From Lutibacter sp. (GTDB taxonomy: Bacteria; Bacteroidota; Bacteroidia; Flavobacteriales; Flavobacteriaceae): a DNA stretch of 64,000 nucleotides. The translations under genes and the position numbers were made by a program. The notes under the pieces are model-generated. The model was given only the letters and a program-made list of their open reading frames with translations, was not told the origin of the DNA and did not search any database. The DNA lies in assembly GCA_036568005.1 (NCBI GenBank), contig DATCTJ010000026.1:4142-68141 (forward strand), given 5' to 3'. Below, piece after piece: positions 521 to 62,087 of the stretch (the first letter of the stretch is position 1; each line of letters starts with the position of its first letter).

Positions 521-2191
521 ATGGAACCTATCTTAAAAGTACAGAATTTATCCATTTCATTTGACCAAAATAAGGTGGTTAATGAGGTTTCATTTGAACT
601 GAACTCACAACAGATTTTAGGAATTGTAGGTGAATCTGGTAGCGGTAAATCGGTTACTGCCTTAGCGATTTTAGGATTGCTCCCAAAAAATGCGACCATC
701 ACCGGCAGTATTTTATTCAACAACGCCAATTTACAATCGACTTCAGAAAAAGATTTTCAAAAAATCAGGGGAAATAAAATCTCCATGATTTTTCAAGAGC
801 CCATGAGTTCCTTAAATCCGAGTTTAACTTGTGGTTATCAGGTTCAGGAAATTTTATTGCAGCACAAAAAACTGTCAAAAAAAGAAGCTAAAAATCAGGT
901 GATTGCGCTTTTTCATAAGGTGAAATTGCCAAGGGCAGAAATGATGTACAGCCAATATCCGCACCAACTTTCGGGCGGACAAAAACAGCGGGTGATGATT
1001 GCGATGGCAATCGCCTGCAAACCGCAAATTTTAATTGCCGACGAACCCACCACGGCGCTTGATGTTACCATCCAAAAAGAAATTATTGAATTGTTGAAAG
1101 CACTTCAGCAAGAAACTGAAATGAGCATTATTTTTATCACGCACGATTTGGCCTTGGTTTCAGAAATTGCCAATACCGTTTTGGTGATGTACCAAGGAGA
1201 AATTGTGGAGCAGGGAAATGTAACTCAGGTTTTTAAAAATCCTGTCCACAATTATACCAAAGCGCTCATAAATTCGAAACCCAACTTAAAAGAACGCCTA
1301 AAAAAGTTGCCCACCGTAAAAGATTTTATAGAAAACACGGTCGACAATGAGGTGTACACAACCGCACAACGCAACGATTTTCACGACAAAATTTATGCAT
1401 CAATACCCTTGCTGGAAGTAAAAAATTTGGCGACTTATTTCAACACCGAAAAACCTTTTTTCTTCGGAAAAGTAAATCCCGTAAAGGCGGTTGACAAGGT
1501 GTCTTTTCAGCTTTTTGAAGGGGAAACCTTAGGGCTGGTTGGCGAATCGGGTTGCGGGAAAACCACGTTGGGCCGTACCATTCTGCACTTAGAAAAAGCC
1601 ACAAAAGGCCAAATTTTTTACAAACAAAAAGACGTTACCAATCTATCAAATAAGGAGTTGAAGGATTTCAGAAAAGAAGTCCAAATTATTTTTCAAGATC
1701 CGTTTTCATCGCTGAATCCGAGAATTCCCATTGGTGAAGCATTGATGGAACCAATGAAAGTGCACGAAATATTAAATTCATCCGAAGAAAGAAAAAAATA
1801 TGTTTTTGAATTGTTGGAACGCGTGGGTTTGCAAGCAGAACATTTTTATAGATATCCGCATGAGTTTTCGGGCGGACAAAGGCAACGCATTGGCATTGCG
1901 CGTACGATTGTCCTAAAACCAAAATTGATTATTTGCGACGAATCGGTATCGGCACTCGATGTTTCCGTGCAGGCGCAAGTACTAAATTTGCTGAATGAAT
2001 TGAAGGTCGATTTTGGTTTTACCTATATTTTTATTTCCCACGATTTGGCGGTTGTGAAATACATGGCCGATCAGCTGGTGGTGATGAACAACGGTAAAAT
2101 TGAGGAAATGGGCGATGCCGATGCCATTTATCAATCGCCAGAAACAGCTTATGCCCAAAAATTAATAGATGCCATTCCTAAGGGAATATAG
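521..2191 (+). CDS. ABC transporter ATP-binding protein with two fused ATPase domains, Dpp/Opp (GsiA/YejF-like) type
   Basis: Two Walker A motifs ([16 protein letters not shown]), two signature motifs ([16 protein letters not shown]) and two Walker B motifs ([16 protein letters not shown]). Oligopeptide-type C-terminal tails are present ([22 protein letters not shown]). Confidence 0.9.
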
Positions 2192-2225
2192 CCCCCTAAC
2201 CCCCGAAGGGGGACAGAGCGTTAAT

Positions 2226-3403: not shown

Positions 3404-3518
3404 AGATGAAACGAGCCATAACAAATTTTGATACACTGCAGAATGATTAATGGCGAACCCGCCTACCGCAGGCAGGTCGCATCTGTACCAATAGAAAATA
3501 AAAAATAAACAGATGAAA
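3404..3518 (+). repeat. Intra-operonic repeat unit, copy A (with 20-22-nt GC palindrome), bounded by AGATGAAA at both ends
   Basis: Aligns base-for-base with 58378-58492 and 61993-62087. The 3' AGATGAAA contains the ATG (3513) of the downstream lipoprotein gene. Confidence 0.8.
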
Positions 3519-10138: not shown

Positions 10139-13100
10139 TTATATTTTTTGAAGCGTTGCCAAAGCTTTATTTATGGAAGTAATTTTATCAAACGTTAACA
10201 AAAGTCGTAACCCATTTTTCGTTTCTTTTTCTTTTATGCTGCACCCGAGCGGATTTTGCTGAACAAATTGTAAAACTTTTGTAAAAACAGGTGTTTGGTA
10301 AAAAGAACTTTGTTGATTGGAAACAAAATAACCAATCATTTTATTTTTTTTCAGAACAATACGTTCTAAACCTAATGATTTGGCAATCCATTTTATGCGA
10401 ACACTGTTTAACAGATCCACCACTTGAACAGGAAGTTCTCCAAATCGATCAATCAATTCCAGTTCAAATTTTTGCAATTCATCTTCGGTTTTAAGTTCAC
10501 TTAATTTGGTGTATAAATTTAGGCGTTCGGATATCACATTGATATAATCATCTGGAAAAAGAATTTCAAAATCGGTGTCAATCTGAATGTCTTTTACATA
10601 ATCTTTCGGCTTTTCATCCTGTTCTTTATACAATTCTTTAAACTCATTTTCCTTCAGTTCCTCAATGGTTTCATTCAATATTTTCTGATAGGTTTCAAAA
10701 CCGATATCATTGATAAATCCGCTTTGTTCCCCACCCAATAAATCGCCTGCACCGCGAATTTCCAAATCTTTCATGGCAATTTGAATCCCGCTACCCAATT
10801 CGGTAAACAATTCAATGGCCTGAATGCGTTTTCGGGCATCATCAGTCATCATATGGTACGGAGGGGTAATAAAATAACAAAACGCTTTTTTGTTTGATCG
10901 CCCAACGCGTCCGCGCATTTGGTGCAAATCGGACAAGCCAAAATTGTTGGCGTTGTTGATAAAAATGGTGTTTGCGTTTGGCACATCCAAACCGCTTTCA
11001 ACAATGGTTGTGGAAACCAACACGTCAAATTCATTGTTGATAAAACCAAGCATCAAGCCTTCCAGCTTTTTGCCATCCATTTGTCCGTGGCCAATTCCAA
11101 TTTTTGCATCGGGAACCAATCGCTGCAACATTCCGGCAACTTCTTTAATGTTTTCGATGCGGTTATGAATAAAAAATACTTGTCCGCCCCGCTGAATTTC
11201 ATAGCGAATAGCATCTCGAATCACTTCTTCACTAAAACGGATCACATTGCTTTCAATGGGAACACGATTTGGTGGCGGTGTGTTGATGACCGATAAATCG
11301 CGCGCCGCCATTAATGAAAACTGCAAGGTTCTCGGGATTGGCGTTGCTGTAAGCGTTAAGGTATCAATATTTTCTTTTAAAGTTTTCAATTTATCTTTAA
11401 CGGCCACGCCAAATTTTTGTTCTTCATCAACAATTAACAAGCCTAGATCTTTGTATTTTATTACCGGATTGGTAAGTTGATGTGTTCCTATCACAATGTC
11501 AACTGACCCATCTTCCAATCCTTTCAGCACAGCTTTTCTTTGATTGGCGGTCCTAAATCGGTTTAAATATTCTACGGTAACCGGAAAATCCTTTAATCGT
11601 TCTGTAAAGGTTTTAAAATGCTGAAAAGCTAAAATAGTGGTTGGTACCAAAATAGCAACTTGTTTCCCATTATCAACAGCTTTAAAAGCGGCCCTGATGG
11701 CAACTTCTGTTTTTCCGAAACCTACATCTCCACAAACCAAACGATCCATTGGGCGTTCATTTTCCATGTCACTTTTCACATCTTGGGTTGATGAAGATTG
11801 ATCTGGTGTGTCTTCGTACAAAAAGCTGGCTTCCAGTTCATGCTGCAAATAACTGTCTGGACGGTATTGAAAACCTTTTTGCATTTTGCGTTTCGCGTAC
11901 AATTCAATCAAATTGAAGGCAATATGTCTAATGCGCGATTTTGTTTTTTGTTTTAATGCTTTCCAGGCGCCGGAACCCAACTTATGCAATTTAGGTGCAG
12001 TGCCGTCTTTGCCGTTATATTTGGCAATTTTATGAAGTGAATGAATGCTGATGTATAAAATATCCCGATCACCATAAATCAATTTAATGGCTTCTTGCTG
12101 TTTGCCTTCGACATCAATTTTTTGAAGTCCGCCAAATTTCCCGATGCCGTGGTCAATATGCGTCACATAATCGCCAATTTCAAGATTGGTCAATTCTTTT
12201 AAGGTGATGGTTTGTTTTTTGGCATAGCCGTTTTTTAAGCGGAACTTATGATAACGCTCAAAAATTTGATGATCGGTATAACAAACCAATTTATTTTCTT
12301 CATCAATAAATCCTTGAAACAATGGAAAAACGAGGGTTGTATATTCCAATTCCTTGTCGAGGTCGCTAAAAATATCGTGAAAACGATCGGCTTGTTTTTG
12401 TGAATCGCAAAACAGATAATTTTTATAGCCATTTTCGCTATTTTGATGAAAATTTTCAACAAGTAAATTGAATTGTTTATTGAATGATGGTTGTGGTTTT
12501 GTGTTGAAGATCACAAGGTCATGCTGAACCTGCCTTGCCGGCAGGCAGGCTTGTTTCAACATCTTTTCATTTGATTTTGAATCGTCTTGAGAAAGCCTTG
12601 CATTCACAATTTCAACCAAAGAAAAAGTCTGTAATTCTTTTTTTATGAGGTCGCCATCACAAAAAAGTTCATTTGGTTTTGCGTGATTTAAAGCCGAAGA
12701 CAAATCTTTAAAAGCGATTTCTGCCTTGCCAAAAAGGTTGTCCAGGGTATTATAAAGCAGGTTTAAATCTTTAGCAAAAACAATGGTTTTATCAGAAATG
12801 TATTTTAAAAAACTGTCTCTTTTTTCAGTTAGTGCTTTATTTTCAACATTGGGCATTATGCCAATTTTATTTATTTTTTCTGTCGAAAGTTGCGTTTCAA
12901 CATCAAAAGTACGGATGCTTTCCACTTCATCATCAAAAAACTCAATACGATAAGGTTCATCATTCGAAAAAGAAAAGACATCAATAATACCGCCTCTAGT
13001 AGAAAATTCTCCTGGCTCACTTACAAAATCCACTCGGTTAAATTGGTATTCAAACAAAACCTCATTCACAAAATCTAAACTCAGTTTATCATTGACACTA

Positions 13101-13561
13101 ATTTTTAAAGTGTTTCGGTTTAACTCTGCCTTAGTGACAACCTGTTCAAAAAGCGCTTCAGGATAAGTGACAATAATTGCCGGTTTTTTACGAGAATTAA
13201 TTCGGTTTAAAACTTCTGAACGTAACAAAACATTGGCGTTGTCGGTTTCTTCTATTTGATAAGGCCTTCGGTAGGAACCCGGATAGAAAAGCACATCCTT
13301 ATCGTTTAAAAGTAGCTCCAAATCATTTAAATAATAGGCAGCTTCTTCTTTATCATCAAAGATTAACAAAAATGGTTTGTCAACTTTTTTAAAACTTTCA
13401 GAAATAACAAAAGACAATGACGATCCAACCAAATTCGAAATTTGAAAATGGTGATTATCCTTTCGTAATAGTGGAACCAACTGTTTTTGCTCAACAATTT
13501 GTCCGTAAATTTTAACAATAGCTTGTTTGCTCAAATTTGCAAATTTTGCCAAAGGTAGCAT
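10139..13561 (-). CDS. mfd: Transcription-repair coupling factor Mfd
   Basis: Superfamily-2 helicase motifs (GDVGFGKTEVA, LLIVDEEQKFG, TLTATPIPRT, QMRGRVGRS) and a CarD-like domain (GDYVTHIDHGIGKF). Start set at the ATG at 13561 (MLPLAKFAN); the 78-codon upstream extension in the ORF track has no Mfd-like sequence. Confidence 0.95.
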   Translation of the reverse strand: MLPLAKFANLSKQAIVKIYGQIVEQKQLVPLLRKDNHHFQISNLVGSSLSFVISESFKKVDKPFLLIFDDKEEAAYYLNDLELLLNDKDVLFYPGSYRRPYQIEETDNANVLLRSEVLNRINSRKKPAIIVTYPEALFEQVVTKAELNRNTLKISVNDKLSLDFVNEVLFEYQFNRVDFVSEPGEFSTRGGIIDVFSFSNDEPYRIEFFDDEVESIRTFDVETQLSTEKINKIGIMPNVENKALTEKRDSFLKYISDKTIVFAKDLNLLYNTLDNLFGKAEIAFKDLSSALNHAKPNELFCDGDLIKKELQTFSLVEIVNARLSQDDSKSNEKMLKQACLPARQVQHDLVIFNTKPQPSFNKQFNLLVENFHQNSENGYKNYLFCDSQKQADRFHDIFSDLDKELEYTTLVFPLFQGFIDEENKLVCYTDHQIFERYHKFRLKNGYAKKQTITLKELTNLEIGDYVTHIDHGIGKFGGLQKIDVEGKQQEAIKLIYGDRDILYISIHSLHKIAKYNGKDGTAPKLHKLGSGAWKALKQKTKSRIRHIAFNLIELYAKRKMQKGFQYRPDSYLQHELEASFLYEDTPDQSSSTQDVKSDMENERPMDRLVCGDVGFGKTEVAIRAAFKAVDNGKQVAILVPTTILAFQHFKTFTERLKDFPVTVEYLNRFRTANQRKAVLKGLEDGSVDIVIGTHQLTNPVIKYKDLGLLIVDEEQKFGVAVKDKLKTLKENIDTLTLTATPIPRTLQFSLMAARDLSVINTPPPNRVPIESNVIRFSEEVIRDAIRYEIQRGGQVFFIHNRIENIKEVAGMLQRLVPDAKIGIGHGQMDGKKLEGLMLGFINNEFDVLVSTTIVESGLDVPNANTIFINNANNFGLSDLHQMRGRVGRSNKKAFCYFITPPYHMMTDDARKRIQAIELFTELGSGIQIAMKDLEIRGAGDLLGGEQSGFINDIGFETYQKILNETIEELKENEFKELYKEQDEKPKDYVKDIQIDTDFEILFPDDYINVISERLNLYTKLSELKTEDELQKFELELIDRFGELPVQVVDLLNSVRIKWIAKSLGLERIVLKKNKMIGYFVSNQQSSFYQTPVFTKVLQFVQQNPLGCSIKEKETKNGLRLLLTFDKITSINKALATLQKI
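12529..12550. repeat. GC-rich palindrome (CCTGCCTTGCCGGCAGGCAGGC) inside the mfd coding sequence
   Basis: 17 of 22 nt are G/C in AT-rich coding DNA. It contains the perfect palindrome TGCCGGCA flanked by CCTGCC/GGCAGG and matches the palindromes at 3457-3478, 32159-32178, 41094-41111 and 58430-58451. It is read in frame as ACLPARQ. Confidence 0.7.
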
Positions 13562-19861: not shown

Positions 19862-20650
19862 ATGAAACATGTAAAAATTGCCTTTTTGGCTTTGTTATTA
19901 ATTGTATCCTGTCGTACTACTAAAGACACCAGTAATGCCCAGAATATACACGATGCCGATAATGACGGCGTTGAAGATTGTAGAGATAGATGTCCAAATG
20001 TACCTGGTTTAGCTAAATTTTACGGTTGCCCTGATACAGATGGAGACGGGATTGAAGACAGTAAAGATAGATGCCCAGAAGTTGCGGGTTCAAAACTATT
20101 ACAAGGTTGCCCAGATAGAGATGGAGACGGTACTCCAGATATAGACGATGCTTGTCCAGATGTTCCTGGTCCAAAAACAAATGCAGGTTGTCCATTTAAA
20201 GATACTGATGGAGATGGTGTAATTGACTTAATTGACAGATGTGTAACTGTAAAAGGTCCAGCTTCAAATTATGGTTGTCCAGTGATACCAGGTCAAGAGA
20301 TTATGACTCAATTGAATGAGTATGGAAGAACTATTTTGTTTGATACCGCTAAATGGACTTTCAAACAAGAGTCTTATTCTGTTTTACAGCCGATGACAAC
20401 AATATTAAAAGAATACCCAGACGCTGATTTTGTAATTGAAGGTCATACTGACAGTGTTGGTTCAGATCAATCTAATCAGTTATTATCTGAAAGAAGAGCA
20501 AATGCAGTTAAAGACTATTTCATCGCAAATGGCATCAGTGTAGACAGATTAACAACAAAAGCTTTTGGAGAAAGTAAACCTATTGACACTAATGACACGC
20601 CTGCAGGTAGAGCAAACAACAGACGTACTGAAGTTAAATTAGCAGAATAA
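19862..20650 (+). CDS. OmpA-family lipoprotein: thrombospondin type-3 repeats plus OmpA C-terminal domain, no barrel
   Basis: Lipobox LLIVS-C, four to five D-x-D-x-D-G/CP repeats ([57 protein letters not shown]), and an OmpA_C motif ([23 protein letters not shown] ... NRRTEV). Confidence 0.85.
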   Translation: MKHVKIAFLALLLIVSCRTTKDTSNAQNIHDADNDGVEDCRDRCPNVPGLAKFYGCPDTDGDGIEDSKDRCPEVAGSKLLQGCPDRDGDGTPDIDDACPDVPGPKTNAGCPFKDTDGDGVIDLIDRCVTVKGPASNYGCPVIPGQEIMTQLNEYGRTILFDTAKWTFKQESYSVLQPMTTILKEYPDADFVIEGHTDSVGSDQSNQLLSERRANAVKDYFIANGISVDRLTTKAFGESKPIDTNDTPAGRANNRRTEVKLAE

Positions 20651-20678
20651 CAGGTTGTAAATTTATATATAACATTCT

Positions 20679-20716
20679 AATCGCCTAAAAGTTTAACATT
20701 TAGGCGATTTTTTTTG
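20679..20716 (+). terminator. Rho-independent terminator
   Basis: AATCGCCTAAA / TTTAGGCGATT, an 11-bp stem, followed by a T run. Confidence 0.7.
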
Positions 20717-20857
20717 CGTAAAACATATTAATAATCTAATTTTAAATAAGAAATACAGAAAATTAAAATCTGAAAGTTATATTTTTTGAATAAATGATAA
20801 GAATAGCATAACTTTGCTAATAAGTAAAAAAAAGAATATTAATTAATTTTTATAAAA

Positions 20858-22216
20858 ATGAAACATTTAAAAATTGCCATGCTGGCTTTATTTCTAATTA
20901 CTGGTTTAAGTAATCTAAACGCACAAGACAAAAATAACCCCTGGGCTATTGGTATTGGCGTAAACGCAGTAGATTTTTACCCTACAAATGCTCTTGGCAG
21001 TTGGGGTGATGAGTTTTTTAACATAGGAGACCATTATAATATACTTCCTGCCATATCAAGAATAACTGTCGGTAAATATTTGGAGGATGGCTTTACTATT
21101 GAAGGAACAGGTTCTTTGAACCAAATTTCCAAAATTGGAGACAAAAGCGTTAGTGATTTAATGTATGTTGGTTTAGATGGCGCTTTAAAGTACGACCTAA
21201 ACTATGTCATAGGAGAAACAGGATGGTTTGATCCTTATGTTTTAGTTGGTGGAGGTTACACTTGGATAGATAAATTCGGAACAGCTACTGTAAATGGTGG
21301 TGGTGGAATTAATTTTTGGTTTAGTGATAATATTGGTTTAAATGTTGAGTCTAAATACAAACATTCATTTAACAGCGATAATGTTTTAAGACACTTTCAA
21401 CATTCTGTTGGGATTGTATTAAAATTTGGAGGAACAGACACAGATGGTGATGGTGTTTACGATAAAGATGATGCTTGTCCAGATGTATTCGGATTGGCGG
21501 CATATAATGGTTGTCCTGATACTGATGGTGATGGCGTTATTGATTCAAAAGACGATTGCCCTACTGTAGCAGGTTTAGCAGCTTTAAATGGTTGTCCAGA
21601 TGCTGATGGTGATGGAATTGCAGATAAAGATGACGCTTGTCCAAATGAGAAAGGAACTAAAGCAAACAAAGGTTGTCCAGATACTGACGGAGATGGAGTT
21701 GTTGATAAAGATGATGCTTGTCCAACCGTAGCCGGTCCAGCCGCAAATAAAGGTTGCCCTTGGCCAGATACTGACGGAGATGGTGTTACAGATAATATAG
21801 ACAAATGCCCAACTGTTGCTGGTCCAGCTTCAAATGATGGATGTCCTGTAGAACCAACTGTTGAGGTTATGGCAACATTGAATGAATATGCAAAAACTAT
21901 TTTATTTGATACAGGAAAAGCAACTTTCAAAAAACAAGCTGTGGATGTATTAAAAGCAATGACAACAATTTTCAAGGAATATCCACAAGCTGATTTTGTA
22001 ATTGCTGGTCATACTGACAGCGTTGGTTCTGATAGATCAAACCAATTATTGTCTGAAAGAAGAGCTGCTGCAGTTAGAGATTATTTAATCTCAAATGGTA
22101 TCAATGCTGATAGATTGACAACTGTAGGTTTTGGAGAAAGCAAACCAGTTGACACTAATAATACAGCCGCAGGCCGTCAAAATAACAGACGTACAGAGGT
22201 TACTTTAAAAAAGTAA
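20858..22216 (+). CDS. OmpA-family outer-membrane protein: beta-barrel plus thrombospondin type-3 repeats plus OmpA C-terminal domain
   Basis: Signal peptide, barrel homologous to 14680-15309, six DTDGDG/CP repeats, and [23 protein letters not shown] ... NRRTEV. Confidence 0.9.
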
Positions 22217-32134: not shown

Positions 32135-32186
32135 GCCTCGATGGCGGAATTGGTAGACCTGTCTGCCGACAGGCAGGCGCGCTGGA
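32135..32186 (+). pseudogene. Dead 5' fragment of tRNA-Leu(CAA): nt 1-24, a 20-nt palindromic insert, then nt 25-32
   Basis: 32135-32158 and 32179-32186 are identical to 32446-32477. The intervening CTGTCTGCCGACAGGCAGGC is absent from the intact tRNA. Confidence 0.85.
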
Positions 32187-32196
32187 ATGAAAAAGT

Positions 32197-32445
32197 ATGT
32201 TTTATGTATATGCAATATCAAGTTTATCACATAATTATATTTATGTAGGATTGACACAAGACGTTGATGAAAGGATAAAAAGACATAATGGCGGTAGAGA
32301 AAGAACTACAAAATTTTATAAACCTTTTGAATTAATTTTTTCAGAGGTTTGTGAAACAAGAATTGAAGCTCGATTTCGTGAAAAGTATTGGAAATCTAGC
32401 ATAGGAAAAGAAAAGTTAAGAATTTTAAGGAATTCTTTAAAATAG
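32197..32445 (+). CDS. GIY-YIG nuclease family protein (YhbQ/UPF0213-like, 82 aa)
   Basis: FYVYAI ... YIYVGLT ... ERIKRHNGG ... EARFREKYWK matches the GIY / YIG / Arg / Glu core of GIY-YIG domains. Confidence 0.85.
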   Translation: MFYVYAISSLSHNYIYVGLTQDVDERIKRHNGGRERTTKFYKPFELIFSEVCETRIEARFREKYWKSSIGKEKLRILRNSLK

Positions 32446-32529
32446 GCCTCGATGGCGGAATTGGTAGACGCGCTGGATTCAAAATCCAGTTTTCGCAAGG
32501 AAGTGTGGGTTCGATTCCCACTCGAGGTA
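32446..32529 (+). tRNA. tRNA-Leu (anticodon CAA), class II with long variable arm, no encoded CCA
   Basis: Manual fold: acceptor GCCTCGA/TCGAGGT, anticodon stem CTGGA/TCCAG with loop TTCAAAA, variable arm TTTC-GCAA-GGAA, T arm GTGGG-TTCGATT-CCCAC, discriminator A. Confidence 0.9.
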
Positions 32530-32533
32530 CTAA

Positions 32534-35321: not shown

Positions 35322-37298
35322 TTATTCCCACTTCAAATCATCAATATAATAAATGTCACTTGCCGTTCCGTCTGATGCTCCTCCATTGAAAAATAAGACT
35401 ATTTTTTTATGATTTGCCGCAGCTTGGTCACTAAAATCGAAGGTATATTCCGTCCAGGCATTTGAGGTAGTAATAGCTCCCCAAACTTCTTTGGCACCAG
35501 AAGTTCCTCCTTCTAATTTGGCCAATAAAGGCACTGCTTTTGAAGACCATATCTTAATTTTCAGTTTATTTTTTGTCGACAAATTAATTGCGGCTCCAAG
35601 ATCAAACACTAAAGCATCCCAGGCATCTGTGCCATTATCAATTACTTTTAAAACAGCATTACTTGTATTAATACCTGTTTTTGAAGGATTCGTAACAATT
35701 TCTGTTGTGATACAGCATACCACCGCATAATTTTGTTGACATTCAAAATTATTTACAATGCTTAAATCTGGAATCACACCAGCACAAGGATCATATGCCG
35801 CAAACCTGATGTCATCAATATAATAAACATCTGATGCGGTTCCGTCATTTTGTCCACCGTTGAAAAATAGCACTATTTTTTGATGGTTTGCAGTAGCCTG
35901 ATCACTAAAATCAAAGACGTACTCTGTCCAGATTCCCGTTTCAGTAATTGCGCCCCAAACTTCTTTAGCTCCTGAAGTTCCTCCTTCTAATTTAGCCAAT
36001 AAAGGTACTGCCCTCGTTGATAATATTTTAATTCTCAGGTAGTTTTTTGTTGACAAATCTATTGATCCGCCAAAATCAAATACCAAAGCATCCCAGGCAT
36101 CGGTGCCATTATCTGTTACTTTTAGTACTGAATCACTTGTATTTATGCCACTTGGATCTGGATTTTCAACAATTGAATTGGTTATATATCCTGGAATGGT
36201 TGAATTTTGCTGACAATTAAAATCGTTTATAATACTTGGGTCTTTAATTACACCATTACAAGGATCTGTAACTTCCCCAAATTTTAAGTCATCTATATAA
36301 TAAACATCTTCGCCATTTGTGTCAACTCCTGCATTAAAGAAAAGCACTAATTTTTGATGATTTGCATTGGCCTCACTGCTGAAATCAAATGAATATTCTT
36401 TCCATTCTCCAGTAGTTGTAATATTGACATCTTTTTCAATTCCGGCTGATGTGCCGCCTTCCAGTTTTGCTTTTAAAACACCTTCAACTGGTGCAAGCAC
36501 TTTTATTTTGAAGGTATTGTGCGTGGTTAAATTTATTGGCGCACCAAAATCAATAATTACAGCATCCCATGCCCCTGTTTCATCAACATATTTTCCTGAG
36601 AATTTACTACCGTTTATGTTATTTTTGTTAGGTGTTGCGGTAAGTTCTACTTCAGGTACATCCTGATTTTGCTGACAGTCAAAATCATTTATGATATTTA
36701 AATCCTCTGCAACACCAGCACAAGGATCTATTGAAGTATCCCATCTTAAATCATCAATATAATATACATCAGCACCACTTGTATCAGCACCAGCATTAAA
36801 AAATAACACCAATTTTTGATGATTTTGATTGAACTGACTACTGAAATCGAAAGAATATTCCACCCAATTGGTTGTGTTTGAAATGGTGGCATCAACCTCT
36901 ATTCCTCCAGAAGTACCACCTTCCAGTTTTGCTTTTAAAGTACCTGCAACATTTGTTTGCACCTTGATTTTAAAAGTGTTTTTTGTTGAAAGATTTATAG
37001 GAGCACCATAATCTATAATTAATGCATCCCAAGCACCTGAAGGATCTATGTATTTTCCAACAAATCTACTCGTGTTGAGACCTGACCAATCTGGATTATA
37101 AACAGCTTCAACATCTGGAAGAATCATATTATCCTGACATTCAAAATCGTTGATAATGGAAGGATCGGCAGTTTCCGGAGTTTCACATGGTACAGATTCA
37201 ATTATTGGATAATAAGTGTCTTCGTTGCATGATGCCATACTTATTATCAACAGCATAACAAGCAATAAATTAGTTGGTTTAAATTTGAAAGTTTTCAT
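35322..37298 (-). CDS. Surface lipoprotein made of four tandem ~155-aa CBM-like beta-sandwich repeats (candidate surface glycan-binding protein of the PUL)
   Basis: Lipobox IISMAS-C. There are four colinear repeats, each with DPC-x-GV ... IINDF-x-CQQN ... AWDA ... FG ... INL-x-TKN ... KAKLEGGTS-G ... W-x-EY-x-FDFS ... NH-x-K-x-VLFFN-x-G ... YYIDD. Confidence 0.7.
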   Translation of the reverse strand: MKTFKFKPTNLLLVMLLIISMASCNEDTYYPIIESVPCETPETADPSIINDFECQDNMILPDVEAVYNPDWSGLNTSRFVGKYIDPSGAWDALIIDYGAPINLSTKNTFKIKVQTNVAGTLKAKLEGGTSGGIEVDATISNTTNWVEYSFDFSSQFNQNHQKLVLFFNAGADTSGADVYYIDDLRWDTSIDPCAGVAEDLNIINDFDCQQNQDVPEVELTATPNKNNINGSKFSGKYVDETGAWDAVIIDFGAPINLTTHNTFKIKVLAPVEGVLKAKLEGGTSAGIEKDVNITTTGEWKEYSFDFSSEANANHQKLVLFFNAGVDTNGEDVYYIDDLKFGEVTDPCNGVIKDPSIINDFNCQQNSTIPGYITNSIVENPDPSGINTSDSVLKVTDNGTDAWDALVFDFGGSIDLSTKNYLRIKILSTRAVPLLAKLEGGTSGAKEVWGAITETGIWTEYVFDFSDQATANHQKIVLFFNGGQNDGTASDVYYIDDIRFAAYDPCAGVIPDLSIVNNFECQQNYAVVCCITTEIVTNPSKTGINTSNAVLKVIDNGTDAWDALVFDLGAAINLSTKNKLKIKIWSSKAVPLLAKLEGGTSGAKEVWGAITTSNAWTEYTFDFSDQAAANHKKIVLFFNGGASDGTASDIYYIDDLKWE

Positions 37299-41060: not shown

Positions 41061-41165
41061 GTCATCTTTCGACTGTGCCCAGCACAAACATGCTGCCTTC
41101 CGCAGGCAGGTTCGCTGTCAGTCATTTCGTTGGGTAATACACCTTTTACCATGCTTGTTTCCTAA
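41061..41165 (-). repeat. Diverged copy E of the intra-operonic repeat unit (minus orientation, contains the GC palindrome)
   Basis: The reverse complement reads GAAACAAGCATGG ... AATGACTGACAGCGAACCTGCCTGCGGAAGGCAGCATGT ... AAGATGAC. This is colinear with GAAACGAGCAT ... GATGATTAATGGCGAACCTACCTGCGGCAGGCAGGCAGCATCTGT ... CAGATGAAA of copy B. Confidence 0.55.
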
Positions 41166-58377: not shown

Positions 58378-58492
58378 AAATGAAACGAGCATTACAAATT
58401 TTGATACACAAGGGGATGATTAATGGCGAACCTACCTGCGGCAGGCAGGCAGCATCTGTTACCAATAATAAATAAAATTTAAACAGATGAAA
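58378..58492 (+). repeat. Intra-operonic repeat unit, copy B (with GC palindrome)
   Basis: Colinear with 3404-3518. It ends in AGATGAAA, which supplies the ATG at 58487. Confidence 0.8.
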
Positions 58493-60882: not shown

Positions 60883-61950
60883 ATGTATCAAATAGAGGAA
60901 CCGACATATTTTTATTATTTGGCAATTATCCCCGCAATAATTGTGCTGTTTCTTTTGGTGCTTTGGTGGAAATCACGCATTCAAAAGCGATTTGCAGATC
61001 ACAAATTAATAAAAAAATTAAGTCCGGAAAAATCAACCTTTAAATCGTTTTTAAAGTTATTTGTTTTTTGTTTTGCCCTGTTCTTTTTAATTATATCATT
61101 GGCAAACCCTAAAATGGGAACAAAATTAGAAACAGTTAAACGCGAAGGTGTTGATATTGTTTTTGCTTTGGATGTTTCAAAAAGTATGGAGGCCGAAGAT
61201 ATTGCGCCAAACCGGTTGGAAAAAGCCAAGCAAATTATCACAAAAGTGATAGAAAACTTGGGAAGCGACCGCATAGGAATTATTATTTATGCAGGAAGTT
61301 CGTATCCGCTGCTTCCAATCACAACGGATTATGCCGCGGCAAAGATGTTTTTGCAAAATGCAAACACAGAGATGGTTTCCAATCAAGGAACAGCTATAAA
61401 TGACGCAATTGATCGCGCACTTTCTTATTATGACAATGATGAGCAAACCAACCGATTTCTTGTGATAGTTTCAGATGGTGAAGACCACGAAGAAAACACC
61501 ATGGAATTGGCTAAAGAAGCTGCGGAAAAAGGAATAAAAATTTATACTGTGGGCATTGGAACTGCAAAAGGAGGCCCTATTCCAATTAGGGAGAACGGAA
61601 GGGTTGTTGCTTATAAAAAGAACAATAAAGGAGCGGTGGTTGTCACCCAAATGAATGAACAAGTTTTAAGGGATATTGCCATCGCTGGAAAAGGAAAATA
61701 CATAAATGGAAATAAAACGCAGGAAACCATTGAAATTATTAAAGAAGTTTTGAAAAAAGCCGAAAAAAACGAGTTTGAGACCAAACAATTTTCAGATTAT
61801 GAAGATCAGTTTCAGTGGTTTGTGGGCATTGGTTTATTGTTGTTAATTATTGACGTAATATTACTTGAAAAGAAAACAAAATGGATTCAAAAACTAAATT
61901 TATTTAATGAAAAGAGCCTCACAGCTGATGATACAAAAAGGAATGACTAA
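60883..61950 (+). CDS. batB: VWA-domain membrane protein BatB
   Basis: TM segments, MIDAS motif DVSKSM, VSDGEDHE, and a C-terminal TM segment. Confidence 0.85.
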   Translation: MYQIEEPTYFYYLAIIPAIIVLFLLVLWWKSRIQKRFADHKLIKKLSPEKSTFKSFLKLFVFCFALFFLIISLANPKMGTKLETVKREGVDIVFALDVSKSMEAEDIAPNRLEKAKQIITKVIENLGSDRIGIIIYAGSSYPLLPITTDYAAAKMFLQNANTEMVSNQGTAINDAIDRALSYYDNDEQTNRFLVIVSDGEDHEENTMELAKEAAEKGIKIYTVGIGTAKGGPIPIRENGRVVAYKKNNKGAVVVTQMNEQVLRDIAIAGKGKYINGNKTQETIEIIKEVLKKAEKNEFETKQFSDYEDQFQWFVGIGLLLLIIDVILLEKKTKWIQKLNLFNEKSLTADDTKRND

Positions 61951-62087
61951 TGGCGAATAGCAGCTGTACCAACAAAAAAATAAAATATAAACAGATGAAA
62001 CGAGCCATAACAAATTCTGATACACAGCAGAATGATAAATGGCGACTGCATCTGTATAAATAAAAAATAAAATATAAAGAGATGAAA
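61929..62087 (+). repeat. Intra-operonic repeat, 1.5 tandem units (C1 partial, C2 full), both lacking the GC palindrome
   Basis: 61993-62087 is colinear with copy A except for a 20-nt deletion at the palindrome site. 61929-62000 matches the 3' two-thirds of the unit. Confidence 0.75.

What the first reader, a model, noticed from the sequence alone, without database searches (positions are those of the whole stretch)
12500..12575. GC palindrome apparently inserted in frame inside mfd
Within otherwise AT-rich mfd coding DNA, 12529-12550 is a near-perfect palindrome with 17 of 22 nt G/C. On the coding (minus) strand it reads GCC TGC CTG CCG GCA AGG CAG, giving the heptapeptide ACLPARQ in ...NEKMLKQ-ACLPARQ-VQHDLVIF... 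This lies in a poorly conserved stretch between the UvrB-homology module and the CarD-like domain. The 5' flank (ATGCTGAAC) resembles the flank in the repeat units (ATGGCGAAC). In-frame colonisation of protein-coding genes by palindromic elements is known for Rickettsia palindromic elements. I am not aware of it being described for Flavobacteriia, but I cannot search.
Basis: partly seen in the sequence, partly recalled or inferred. Interest (0 to 1): 0.72.

Follow-up and report, generated by a model that had tools for sequence, protein, structure and literature searches.

The report
Tiny mobile GC palindrome inside mfd
A 21-base GC-rich palindrome has been inserted cleanly and in frame into the DNA-repair gene mfd of a Lutibacter; it belongs to a seemingly undescribed family of near-identical 20-base palindromes found in many bacterial phyla, usually next to a small GIY-YIG nuclease gene at tRNA genes.

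Summary
CCTGCCTTGCCGGCAGGCAGG (12529-12549) is a clean 21-nt insertion that adds ACLPARQ to Mfd. One other Lutibacter lineage shares it. About 118 other Lutibacter orthologues lack it, and many read ...EKMLNQ|VQHD... with an intact empty site.

The insertion sits in a linker of very variable length, between the UvrB-interaction domain and the RID. At DNA level it lies at the stem-loop junction of a pre-existing hairpin, ATGCTGAA-loop-TTCAGCAT.

The window gives two more filled/empty comparisons: a duplicated tRNA-Leu 5' fragment versus the intact tRNA-Leu, and four copies of an intergenic repeat unit (two filled, two empty). None shows a target-site duplication.

The same 20-mer, CCTGCCTGCCGGCAGGCAGG, and one double variant occur in Bacteroidota, CPR, Omnitrophota, Planctomycetota, Proteobacteria and viral contigs. 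Most copies are intergenic. Some are in frame in FtsK, RecO, TrmD, ribosomal protein L6, DNA ligase and ScpB.

The only recurrent neighbouring gene is a small UPF0213/SLX1-like GIY-YIG nuclease at tRNA genes. In 39 of 46 homologous loci the palindrome interrupts the duplicated tRNA fragment beside that gene.

My reading is a selfish mini-element, translated harmlessly in Mfd. The mobilising enzyme is inferred, not shown.

The parts
12529..12549 (.). PAL copy in mfd: 21-nt GC palindrome CCTGCCTTGCCGGCAGGCAGG, the 20-mer consensus plus one extra base. It is translated on the minus strand as ACLPARQ.
   Evidence: clean 21-nt insertion relative to the empty orthologous sites; shared with L001, which differs by one substitution
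12521..12562 (.). Host hairpin that received the insertion. The 5' arm is ATGCTGAA (12521-12528), the former loop is CTTGT (12550-12554) and the 3' arm is TTCAACAT (12555-12562). PAL abuts the 5' arm directly.
   Evidence: The empty orthologue L002 reads ATGCTGAA-TCAAG-TTCAGCAT. The same hairpin motif occurs in L020 and L065.
10139..13561 (-). mfd (transcription-repair coupling factor), 1140 aa, intact, with all Mfd domains
32158..32177 (+). PAL copy CCTGTCTGCCGACAGGCAGG: a clean 20-nt insertion in the D-loop of a duplicated tRNA-Leu 5' fragment (32135-32187)
   Evidence: the fragment reads GGTAGA[PAL]CGCGCTGGA, the intact tRNA reads GGTAGACGCGCTGGA. The same arrangement is seen in more than 35 metagenome loci.
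32197..32445 (+). Small GIY-YIG nuclease gene (81 aa, UPF0213/SLX1-like) between the PAL-bearing tRNA fragment and the intact tRNA
   Evidence: (Pfam PF01541, E = 6e-18)
32446..32530 (+). Intact tRNA-Leu(CAA); serves as the empty-site reference for the 32158 copy
3458..3476 (.). Degenerate 19-nt PAL copy CCCGCCTACCGCAGGCAGG inside the intergenic repeat unit at 3405-3512
   Evidence: the whole unit is absent from the orthologous gene junction in L001, L003 and L004
58431..58449 (.). Degenerate 19-nt PAL copy CCTACCTGCGGCAGGCAGG inside the repeat unit at 58380-58486
61905..62082 (+). Two tandem copies of the same repeat unit without PAL; these are the empty sites (ATGGCGA|CTGCATC and ATGGCGAA|TAGCAGC)
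   Evidence: alignment A5 shows a clean 19-20-nt gap
41092..41110 (.). PAL-like copy GCTGCCTTCCGCAGGCAGG, intergenic between a SusD-like gene and a downstream gene

Best explanation
The 21 nt at 12529-12549 are a copy of a very small selfish DNA element, called PAL here. Its consensus is CCTGCCTGCCGGCAGGCAGG. A common variant is CCTGTCTGCCGACAGGCAGG, and the 21-nt forms carry one extra base.

Shown: PAL entered mfd once, in an ancestor shared by this Lutibacter and the L001 lineage. It inserted precisely, without a target-site duplication, at the stem-loop junction of an existing DNA hairpin in a linker of variable length. PAL has no stop codon in any frame, and this copy is 21 nt long. It is therefore translated as ACLPARQ and mfd stays intact.

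Inferred: PAL moves as, or into, folded single-stranded or cruciform DNA and prefers hairpin loops. Examples are the D- and T-arm hairpins of tRNA genes, terminator-like hairpins, and the loops of other PAL copies.

Also inferred: mobilisation or maintenance depends on the small UPF0213/SLX1-like GIY-YIG nuclease. That gene sits at tRNA genes, and the duplicated tRNA fragment beside it is almost always interrupted by PAL. Solo copies such as the one in mfd would be rare spill-over insertions.

In Mfd the element is most likely a neutral passenger.
For: Insertion into mfd:
- Filled and empty orthologous sites are seen at protein level and at DNA level.
- The insertion is shared across lineages whose mfd genes differ at 15% of nucleotides, with 20 of 21 PAL bases identical.

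Other filled/empty pairs, none with a target-site duplication:
- tRNA-Leu fragment versus intact tRNA-Leu.
- Four copies of the repeat unit, two with and two without PAL.

The family is real and goes beyond chance:
- 77 of 127 sites match the exact consensus.
- 97 sites were found in viral contigs.

Behaviour expected of a tolerated parasite:
- PAL is depleted from long ORFs: 30% of sites versus 79% of control positions lie in an ORF of 150 aa or more.
- It is nevertheless in frame inside Pfam-verified FtsK, RecO (two genomes), TrmD, L6, DNA ligase, ScpB and a dehydratase.

Hairpin targeting:
- Flanks form a stem of 6 bp or more at 14% of sites versus 3-4% of control positions.
- In 11 of those 18 sites PAL abuts one stem strand directly, versus 31 of 159 controls. 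The mfd site has the same geometry.
- Nested PAL-in-PAL cases exist.

Link to the GIY-YIG gene:
- It is the only recurrent gene family within 1.5 kb of PAL in an unbiased clustering.
- In 39 of 46 loci homologous to the window's GIY-YIG gene, 51 PAL copies lie within 160 nt of the ORF, and none lies elsewhere in the 157 kb.
- The same architecture occurs with tRNA-Lys in a CPR genome.
- 13% of PAL sites lie within 400 nt of a tRNA gene.
- The nuclease's closest solved relatives are UPF0213 proteins, followed by weak matches (E about 0.3) to the structure-specific endonuclease SLX1.

Tolerance in Mfd:
- The linker varies from 0 to about 35 residues among orthologues and is deleted in the closest relatives.
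Against: - No enzyme activity has been shown. Most PAL copies (about 95% in the genome scan, 95 of 97 in viral contigs) have no GIY-YIG gene nearby.
- An 81-aa catalytic domain with no DNA-binding domain is an unlikely sequence-specific transposase.
- Only 14% of solo copies sit in obvious hairpins, and no target consensus emerges.
- The enrichment in tRNA fragments could come from selection rather than targeting. PAL there might protect the nuclease site or break the direct repeat.
- Other Lutibacter loci show almost no PAL (1 copy in about 120 kb), so activity is patchy.
- Loop status in the protein rests on the length variability of the linker. The AlphaFold model is poor (mean pLDDT 48.8) and profile mapping to E. 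coli Mfd does not cover residues 240-400.
Confidence: 0.7

Rival explanations
1. PAL is a REP-type element. It would be a hairpin plus a 4-nt tag, mobilised on single-stranded DNA by a HUH tyrosine transposase (RAYT or IS200/IS605 TnpA) encoded elsewhere in the genome. The GIY-YIG association would be incidental.
For: - Size (20-21 nt) and palindromic form match REPs.
- Insertion leaves no target-site duplication, as for IS200/IS605.
- One possible reading of the structure is a 6-bp hairpin CCTGYC-TGCC-GRCAGG plus a CAGG tail. Under it the C5/G12 to T5/A12 change is compensatory and the extra base of the 21-mers falls in the loop.
- Intragenic REPs in DNA-repair genes are documented (PMC3733652).
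Against: - There is no GTAG or CGTC tag.
- No transposase family recurs near PAL in 120 loci.
- REP families are normally specific to a species or genus and present in hundreds of copies. PAL is identical across phyla and sparse.
- The T5/A12 linkage can equally be explained by descent, because RNAfold prefers the symmetric register, with a G.U pair and A12 in the loop.
Confidence: 0.12
2. PAL is not independently mobile. It is a fixed part of the tRNA/GIY-YIG homing cassette. Solo copies such as the mfd one would arise by rare ectopic repair or gene conversion, with short patches copied from a cassette during break repair at hairpin-prone sites.
For: - In Flavobacteriaceae-like metagenome loci PAL is found only beside GIY-YIG genes: 51 copies near the ORF, 0 elsewhere in 157 kb.
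- PAL always lies at the junction between the cassette and the tRNA sequence.
- Hairpins are fragile sites.
Against: - The insertions are exactly the 20-21-nt palindrome, with no co-transferred cassette flank, in three independent comparisons.
- Hundreds of solo copies with unrelated flanks occur in many phyla and in viral contigs.
- Nested PAL-in-PAL insertions, and variable second PAL copies within the same tRNA fragment, point to repeated insertion of the unit itself.
Confidence: 0.13
3. The insert is adaptive for Mfd or its expression. The peptide might modulate Mfd, or the strong mRNA or DNA hairpin might regulate translation, transcription or mutation rate.
For: - The insert is retained across two lineages with 20 of 21 nt conserved, while third codon positions of mfd are only 68% identical.
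- The composite hairpin is stable, -21.5 kcal/mol against -11.9 for the empty site.
- Di Nocera et al. speculated that REPs in repair genes are not fortuitous.
Against: - The closest relatives delete the whole segment and about 118 orthologues lack it.
- The linker is hypervariable in length and sequence.
- The same sequence is scattered through unrelated genes and intergenic DNA.
- One change in 21 nt is not significantly fewer than expected.
Confidence: 0.04
4. It is a chance GC-rich palindrome or an assembly artefact.
For: None beyond the short length of the sequence.
Against: - No shuffle gave a match.
- The insertion is present in an independent assembly, with one substitution.
- The identical 21-mer occurs in 8 other genomes and the 20-mer in 77 sites, including genomes of cultured isolates.
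Confidence: 0.01

Closest known systems
Rickettsia palindromic elements (RPE)
   Same: Palindromic repeats inserted in frame into genes that remain open and presumably functional. They sit in tolerant regions of the protein.
   Different: RPE-1 elements are about 100-150 bp and restricted to Rickettsia, and the sequence is unrelated. PAL is 20-21 nt, nearly identical across many phyla, and linked to a GIY-YIG/tRNA cassette.
REP / REPIN elements mobilised by RAYT (GTAG- or CGTC-tagged REPs; PMC3733652)
   Same: Imperfect palindromes of 20-40 nt, mostly intergenic and occasionally intragenic, notably in DNA replication and repair genes. No target-site duplication. Thought to act as single-stranded hairpins.
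   Different: PAL has no GTAG or CGTC tag and no RAYT gene nearby. It is low in copy number rather than present in hundreds of copies. The same sequence occurs across phyla instead of in species-specific families. Its associated gene is a GIY-YIG nuclease.
GC clusters of yeast and other fungal mitochondrial genomes, and the 'byp' elements derived from them (recalled from my own knowledge, not checked here)
   Same: Short GC-rich palindromes that spread in AT-rich genomes. They insert into coding sequence (var1) and lie next to mobile endonuclease ORFs.
   Different: Those are organellar, 30-50 bp, and reported to prefer particular targets. Byps are skipped by the ribosome, whereas PAL in mfd is simply translated. 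There is no sequence relationship.
Free-standing GIY-YIG homing endonuclease genes at tRNA genes (phage T4 SegB; PMC2330249)
   Same: A GIY-YIG gene lodged in or next to tRNA genes. This is the closest precedent for the cassette that carries PAL at 32135-32530.
   Different: SegB is larger, phage-borne and has DNA-binding regions. No constant palindrome or duplicated, interrupted tRNA fragment is described for it. The window protein is an 81-aa UPF0213-like catalytic domain only.

Membership tests
Rickettsia palindromic elements (RPE) | In-frame residence in ORFs that stay intact | tested here: met
   a 7-codon insertion; mfd is full length with all domains
Rickettsia palindromic elements (RPE) | Element length of about 100-150 bp (RPE-1) and restriction to the Rickettsia lineage | tested here: not met
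   21 nt; host is Lutibacter; the family is found in many phyla
REP / REPIN (RAYT-mobilised) | Short (20-40 nt) imperfect palindrome that inserts without a target-site duplication | tested here: met
REP / REPIN (RAYT-mobilised) | Conserved GTAG or CGTC tetranucleotide at one end | tested here: not met
   PAL ends in CCTG and CAGG, and its flanks are not conserved
REP / REPIN (RAYT-mobilised) | Associated RAYT (HUH Y1 transposase) gene flanked by the repeats | tested here: inconclusive
   Unbiased clustering of ORFs within 1.5 kb of PAL in 120 loci found only GIY-YIG as a specific recurrent family. Whole genomes could not be inspected.
REP / REPIN (RAYT-mobilised) | Tens to hundreds of copies per genome, often as inverted dimers | tested here: inconclusive
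   5 copies in this 64-kb window but 1 in about 120 kb of related Lutibacter loci. No dimers were seen in the window. A genome-wide count is not possible with the tools here.
MITE | Terminal inverted repeats with a target-site duplication; 70-300 bp | tested here: not met
   No duplication in three filled/empty comparisons; length is 20-21 nt
Free-standing GIY-YIG homing endonuclease cassette (applies to 32135-32530, the primary context of PAL) | GIY-YIG catalytic domain | tested here: met
   Pfam PF01541, E = 6e-18; closest solved structures are UPF0213 proteins, with weaker (E about 0.3) matches to SLX1 and I-TevI
Free-standing GIY-YIG homing endonuclease cassette (applies to 32135-32530, the primary context of PAL) | Inserted in or beside a conserved host gene, with the target restored or duplicated, and recurring at the same target in different genomes | tested here: met
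   tRNA-Leu fragment + GIY-YIG + intact tRNA-Leu in more than 35 loci; other tRNAs in other phyla
Free-standing GIY-YIG homing endonuclease cassette (applies to 32135-32530, the primary context of PAL) | Site-specific cleavage of the empty allele, followed by homing | not testable with these tools
   Needs biochemistry or genetic crosses

The most novel reading that the evidence does not exclude
PAL would be the smallest mobile DNA element yet recognised in bacteria. It would be a 20-nt hairpin that inserts at the stem-loop junctions of DNA hairpins, without a target-site duplication. Its partner would be the widespread, functionally unassigned UPF0213/SLX1-like GIY-YIG nucleases that colonise tRNA genes. 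That partnership would explain why one identical 20-mer is scattered across Bacteroidota, CPR, Omnitrophota, Planctomycetota, Proteobacteria and phages, and why it can sit in frame inside essential genes (mfd, ftsK, recO, trmD, rplF).
Probability: 0.3. Interest if true: 0.9.

Novelty: new variant of a known kind. Interest (0 to 1): 0.78.

Why it matters
In-frame palindromic repeats are known from Rickettsia and from REP families. This case differs in three ways that make it useful.

1. The element is only 20-21 nt long, and three clean filled/empty comparisons define its exact boundaries.
2. The same sequence is shared by very distant phyla and by viral contigs. That calls for a common agent or frequent horizontal transfer.
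3. It is tightly linked to a small GIY-YIG nuclease family (UPF0213) for which the searches here found no assigned function, and to duplicated tRNA fragments. This gives a concrete hypothesis that can be tested at the bench for both the nuclease and the palindrome.

There are also practical points. Peptides such as LPAGRQ, PACRQAG and ACLPA(G)R inside conserved proteins mark this element. The linkers that carry it show where proteins such as Mfd tolerate insertions.

Tried and rejected
- Rfam: the gathering-threshold scan of the whole window found only the tRNA. Permissive scans around the mfd site and around a repeat unit gave only chance-level hits.
- Target-site consensus: pooled flank frequencies and trinucleotide enrichment showed only weak signals, namely T depleted at position -1 and NCG, AGA and GAA enriched 2-3.5-fold. 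I make no target claim.
- Target-site duplication: none in any of the three comparisons.
- RAYT or another transposase near PAL: not found.
- Flank as part of the element: rejected. ATGCTGAA is present at the empty mfd sites, and ATGGCGAA is present in the repeat units that lack PAL.
- Structural mapping:
  - phmmer and profile searches against PDB Mfd structures align residues 40-240 and 400 onward, but not the 240-400 segment.
  - The AlphaFold2 model built from a shallow 28-sequence alignment is poor (pLDDT 48.8). It shows coil at 338-347, but I do not rely on it. No fold search was run.
- Covariation (C5/G12 to T5/A12) as proof of an asymmetric hairpin-plus-tail structure: downgraded to a suggestion. 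The symmetric register tolerates both changes, and the pattern may reflect a single ancestral event.
- The search for related loci with a seven-sequence GIY-YIG alignment failed because no stretch was conserved enough. The single protein was used instead.
- Literature: no paper in the library contains the 20-mer, the 13-mer or the PAL-encoded peptides. Searches on GIY-YIG, tRNA, palindrome and UPF0213 found no description of this association. Absence from this library does not prove the family is unpublished.
- Second palindrome family (TCCCGATAGCTATCGGGA), seen in the metagenome cassettes: not present in the window.
Full report
**1. The observation**

Window 12529-12549 (+) reads CCTGCCTTGCCGGCAGGCAGG. 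It is a palindrome with one extra base, in a region of about 34% GC. No dinucleotide-preserving shuffle produced a match with up to three mismatches.

The sequence lies inside a 1140-aa ORF on the minus strand (10139-13561). The ORF is Mfd by Pfam: UvrB_inter 152-238, CarD_TRCF_RID 460-515, DEAD, Helicase_C and TRCF. It also matches solved Mfd structures.

On the coding strand the 21 nt read G|CC TGC CTG CCG GCA AGG CAG G|TT. They add ACLPARQ at residues 338-344.

**2. Is it an insertion?**

The best 120 Mfd homologues are all Lutibacter, at 78-93% identity. In their alignment ACLPARQ is present only in the window and in P0001, a Lutibacter MAG at 92% identity. Many orthologues keep both flanks with nothing between them (...EKMLNQ|VQHDVV...), for example P0012, P0014, P0022, P0039 and P0067.

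At DNA level:
- the empty site in L002 is AAG ATG CTG AAT CAA|GTT CAG CAT GAC;
- the window has AAG ATG TTG AAA CAA G[CCTGCCTGCCGGCAAGGCAGG]TT CAG CAT GAC;
- L001 has the same 21 nt with one substitution, A to G at the extra base.

The insertion is exact, 21 nt long, and has no target-site duplication. The two filled genes are 85% identical overall and 68% identical at third codon positions, so the insertion predates their split.

The surrounding linker ranges from 0 to about 35 residues among orthologues. The two other closest relatives (P0002 and P0003, loci L254 and L255) have the hairpin region deleted. This variability is the main evidence that the site tolerates insertions.

Structural mapping did not settle the position in the fold:
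- Sequence and profile mapping to E. coli Mfd skips residues 240-400.
- The AlphaFold model is too poor to use (pLDDT 48.8). It shows coil at 338-347.

**3. The host site is a hairpin**

The empty site reads ATGCTGAA-TCAAG-TTCAGCAT, an 8-bp stem with a 5-nt loop (-11.9 kcal/mol). The palindrome sits between the loop and one stem strand, giving a composite hairpin of -21.5 kcal/mol.

This host hairpin motif recurs in unrelated genomes, L020 and L065. In L020 a second hairpin of the same type is filled by the palindrome at the same position.

**4. Other copies in the window give two more filled/empty pairs**

(a) At 32135-32187 there is a duplicated 5' fragment of tRNA-Leu. It reads ...GGTAGA[CCTGTCTGCCGACAGGCAGG]CGCGCTGGA. 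The intact tRNA-Leu(CAA) at 32446-32530 reads GGTAGACGCGCTGGA. Between them lies an 81-aa GIY-YIG ORF at 32197-32445 (Pfam E = 6e-18). Its closest solved relatives are UPF0213 proteins, followed by weak matches (E about 0.3) to SLX1.

(b) An intergenic unit of about 90-107 nt occurs four times.
- The copies at 3405-3512 and 58380-58486 carry 19-nt degenerate palindromes.
- The tandem copies at 61905-62082 lack them, with a clean gap in the alignment.
- The 3.4-kb copy is itself absent from the orthologous gene junction in three relatives.

(c) A fifth, degenerate copy at 41092-41110 is intergenic.

None of these comparisons shows a target-site duplication.

**5. The family outside this genome**

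- Of 127 sites, 77 are the perfect 20-mer CCTGCCTGCCGGCAGGCAGG and 28 are the double variant CCTGTCTGCCGACAGGCAGG. Only 6 are single-change intermediates.
- Another 16 are 21-mers with one extra base after CCTGCCT. The mfd-type 21-mer occurs in 8 other genomes.
- Hosts span Bacteroidota (including cultured Winogradskyella, Gaetbulibacter, Flagellimonas and Flavobacterium), CPR/Patescibacteria, Omnitrophota, Planctomycetota, Proteobacteria, Nitrospirota and others. Most are low-GC genomes, where chance matches are least likely.
- IMG/VR viral contigs hold 97 more sites.

*Genic versus intergenic.* Flanks are unrelated between loci. Sites are depleted from long ORFs (30% versus 79% of control positions), so most are intergenic.

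Clear in-frame genic copies do exist, with Pfam domains spanning or flanking the insert:
- FtsK, RecO (two genomes) and ATP-dependent DNA ligase;
- TrmD, ribosomal protein L6 and ScpB;
- a sugar dehydratase and a PMT glycosyltransferase;
- an HsdS gene that also carries an in-frame GIY-YIG domain 41 nt downstream of the palindrome.

The consensus has no stop codon in any frame.

**6. Signs of a mechanism**

*Hairpins.*
- Flanks form a stem of 6 bp or more at 14% of sites, against 3-4% of control positions.
- In 11 of those 18 sites the palindrome abuts one stem strand directly, against 31 of 159 controls. The mfd site has this geometry.
- Several sites are a palindrome nested inside another copy.

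*tRNA genes.* 13% of sites lie within 400 nt of an intact tRNA gene. Insertions in tRNA fragments fall in the D-loop or the T-loop.

*Neighbouring genes.* In an unbiased clustering of ORFs within 1.5 kb of the palindrome, the only specific recurrent family is the small GIY-YIG nuclease. No transposase family appears.

*The reverse sampling.* Starting from the window's GIY-YIG protein, 46 metagenome loci were retrieved.
- 39 of them carry 51 palindromes within 160 nt of the ORF. There are none elsewhere in the 157 kb.
- The usual architecture is [tRNA 5' fragment interrupted by the palindrome]-GIY-YIG-[intact tRNA].
- Often a second palindrome lies further 5' in the fragment.
- The mirror architecture also occurs: [intact tRNA]-GIY-YIG-[3' fragment with the palindrome in the T-loop].
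- A CPR (WWE3) genome has the same arrangement with tRNA-Lys.

**7. Interpretation**

*Shown.* The mfd sequence is a precise, old, in-frame insertion of a member of a cross-phylum palindrome family. The family's primary genomic context is the junction of a tRNA-associated GIY-YIG cassette.

*Inferred.* The unit inserts at hairpin loops, which points to folded single-stranded or cruciform DNA. The GIY-YIG nuclease would mobilise it, or the cassette would select for it, because the palindrome destroys the nuclease site or the direct repeat in the duplicated tRNA fragment. The mfd copy would be a neutral spill-over.

*Rivals.*
- REP/RAYT-type mobilisation. Against it, there is no GTAG or CGTC tag and no HUH gene nearby.
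- Ectopic repair patches copied from a cassette. Against it, the boundaries are exact and hundreds of solo copies exist.
- An adaptive role in Mfd. Against it, relatives lack or delete the segment.
- Chance. This is refuted.

The C5/G12 to T5/A12 co-variation would fit a 6-bp hairpin plus a CAGG tail. It may also be a single inherited event, and the symmetric fold tolerates it.

**8. Comparison with what is known**

In-frame palindromic repeats are known for Rickettsia RPEs and for REPs. Those REPs are notably found in replication and repair genes (PMC3733652). The behaviour is therefore not new.

What appears new:
- the extreme shortness of the element, with exactly defined ends;
- the near-identity across phyla and viruses;
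- the association with UPF0213-type GIY-YIG genes at tRNA genes rather than with RAYTs.

No paper in the searchable library contains the sequence or the peptides it encodes, or describes the association. This does not prove the family is unpublished.

**9. Verdict**

I rate it a new variant of a known kind, with interest 0.78.

Noticed in passing
window 32135-32530: A tRNA-Leu 5' fragment (interrupted by the palindrome), an 81-aa GIY-YIG ORF and the intact tRNA-Leu(CAA) lie in a row. The same three-part architecture recurs in more than 35 metagenome loci, sometimes in tandem arrays (L130, L150). It also occurs with other tRNAs in other phyla (L072, tRNA-Lys, in a WWE3 genome).
   Followed up: yes
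window 3405-3512, 58380-58486, 61905-61995, 61996-62082: An intergenic unit of about 90-107 nt occurs in four copies. Each begins with ATGAAA and ends exactly at the ATGAAA start of the downstream gene. The 3.4-kb copy is an insertion between a TPR gene and a DUF4292 gene, which abut in three relatives. It may be a mobile 5'-leader or promoter-like element. It has no Rfam match.
   Followed up: partly
L003-L006 (mfd linker); also L015:4540-4557 and L088:3543-3560: Other Lutibacter mfd linkers carry a different GC-rich motif in frame, CTTCGACTCCGCTCAGCG, translated as ...FDSAQR... or ...STPLS.... In L005 it is present in both orientations. The motif also occurs in a Saccharibacteria genome and one other genome. 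The mfd linker therefore looks like a repeated landing site for short GC-rich elements.
   Followed up: partly
L002:5883-5906; L020:3469-3492; L065:7095-7118: The host hairpin of the mfd insertion (AT[G/T]CTGAAnCAAGTTCAG[C/A]ATGAC, translated MLNQVQHD) is itself found in unrelated phyla. In L020 it lies next to a GIY-YIG gene and a PAL-filled twin hairpin. It may be a second, older in-frame element.
   Followed up: partly
L129, L140, L155, L157 (upstream of the GIY-YIG ORF): A second, unrelated palindrome, TCCCGATAGCTATCGGGA, also interrupts duplicated tRNA fragments beside GIY-YIG genes. It is not present in the window.
   Followed up: partly
L106:2751-4892: A type I restriction specificity (HsdS) ORF carries the palindrome and, 41 nt downstream, an in-frame GIY-YIG domain between its two target-recognition halves.
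   Followed up: partly
L254 and L255 (mfd linker): The two other closest relatives of the window's Mfd (93% and 92% identity) have lost the whole hairpin region of the linker. This is consistent with palindromes being prone to deletion.
   Followed up: partly
window 2190-2215: A GC-rich hairpin (CCCCCGAAGGGGG) lies immediately after the stop codon of the ORF at 521-2191. It looks like a terminator and is unrelated to PAL.
   Followed up: no
window 20024-21835 and 35338-36309: There are tandem repeats of 81-87 nt (Asp-rich, of the thrombospondin type 3 kind, in OmpA-family genes) and a 474-nt tandem duplication.
   Followed up: no
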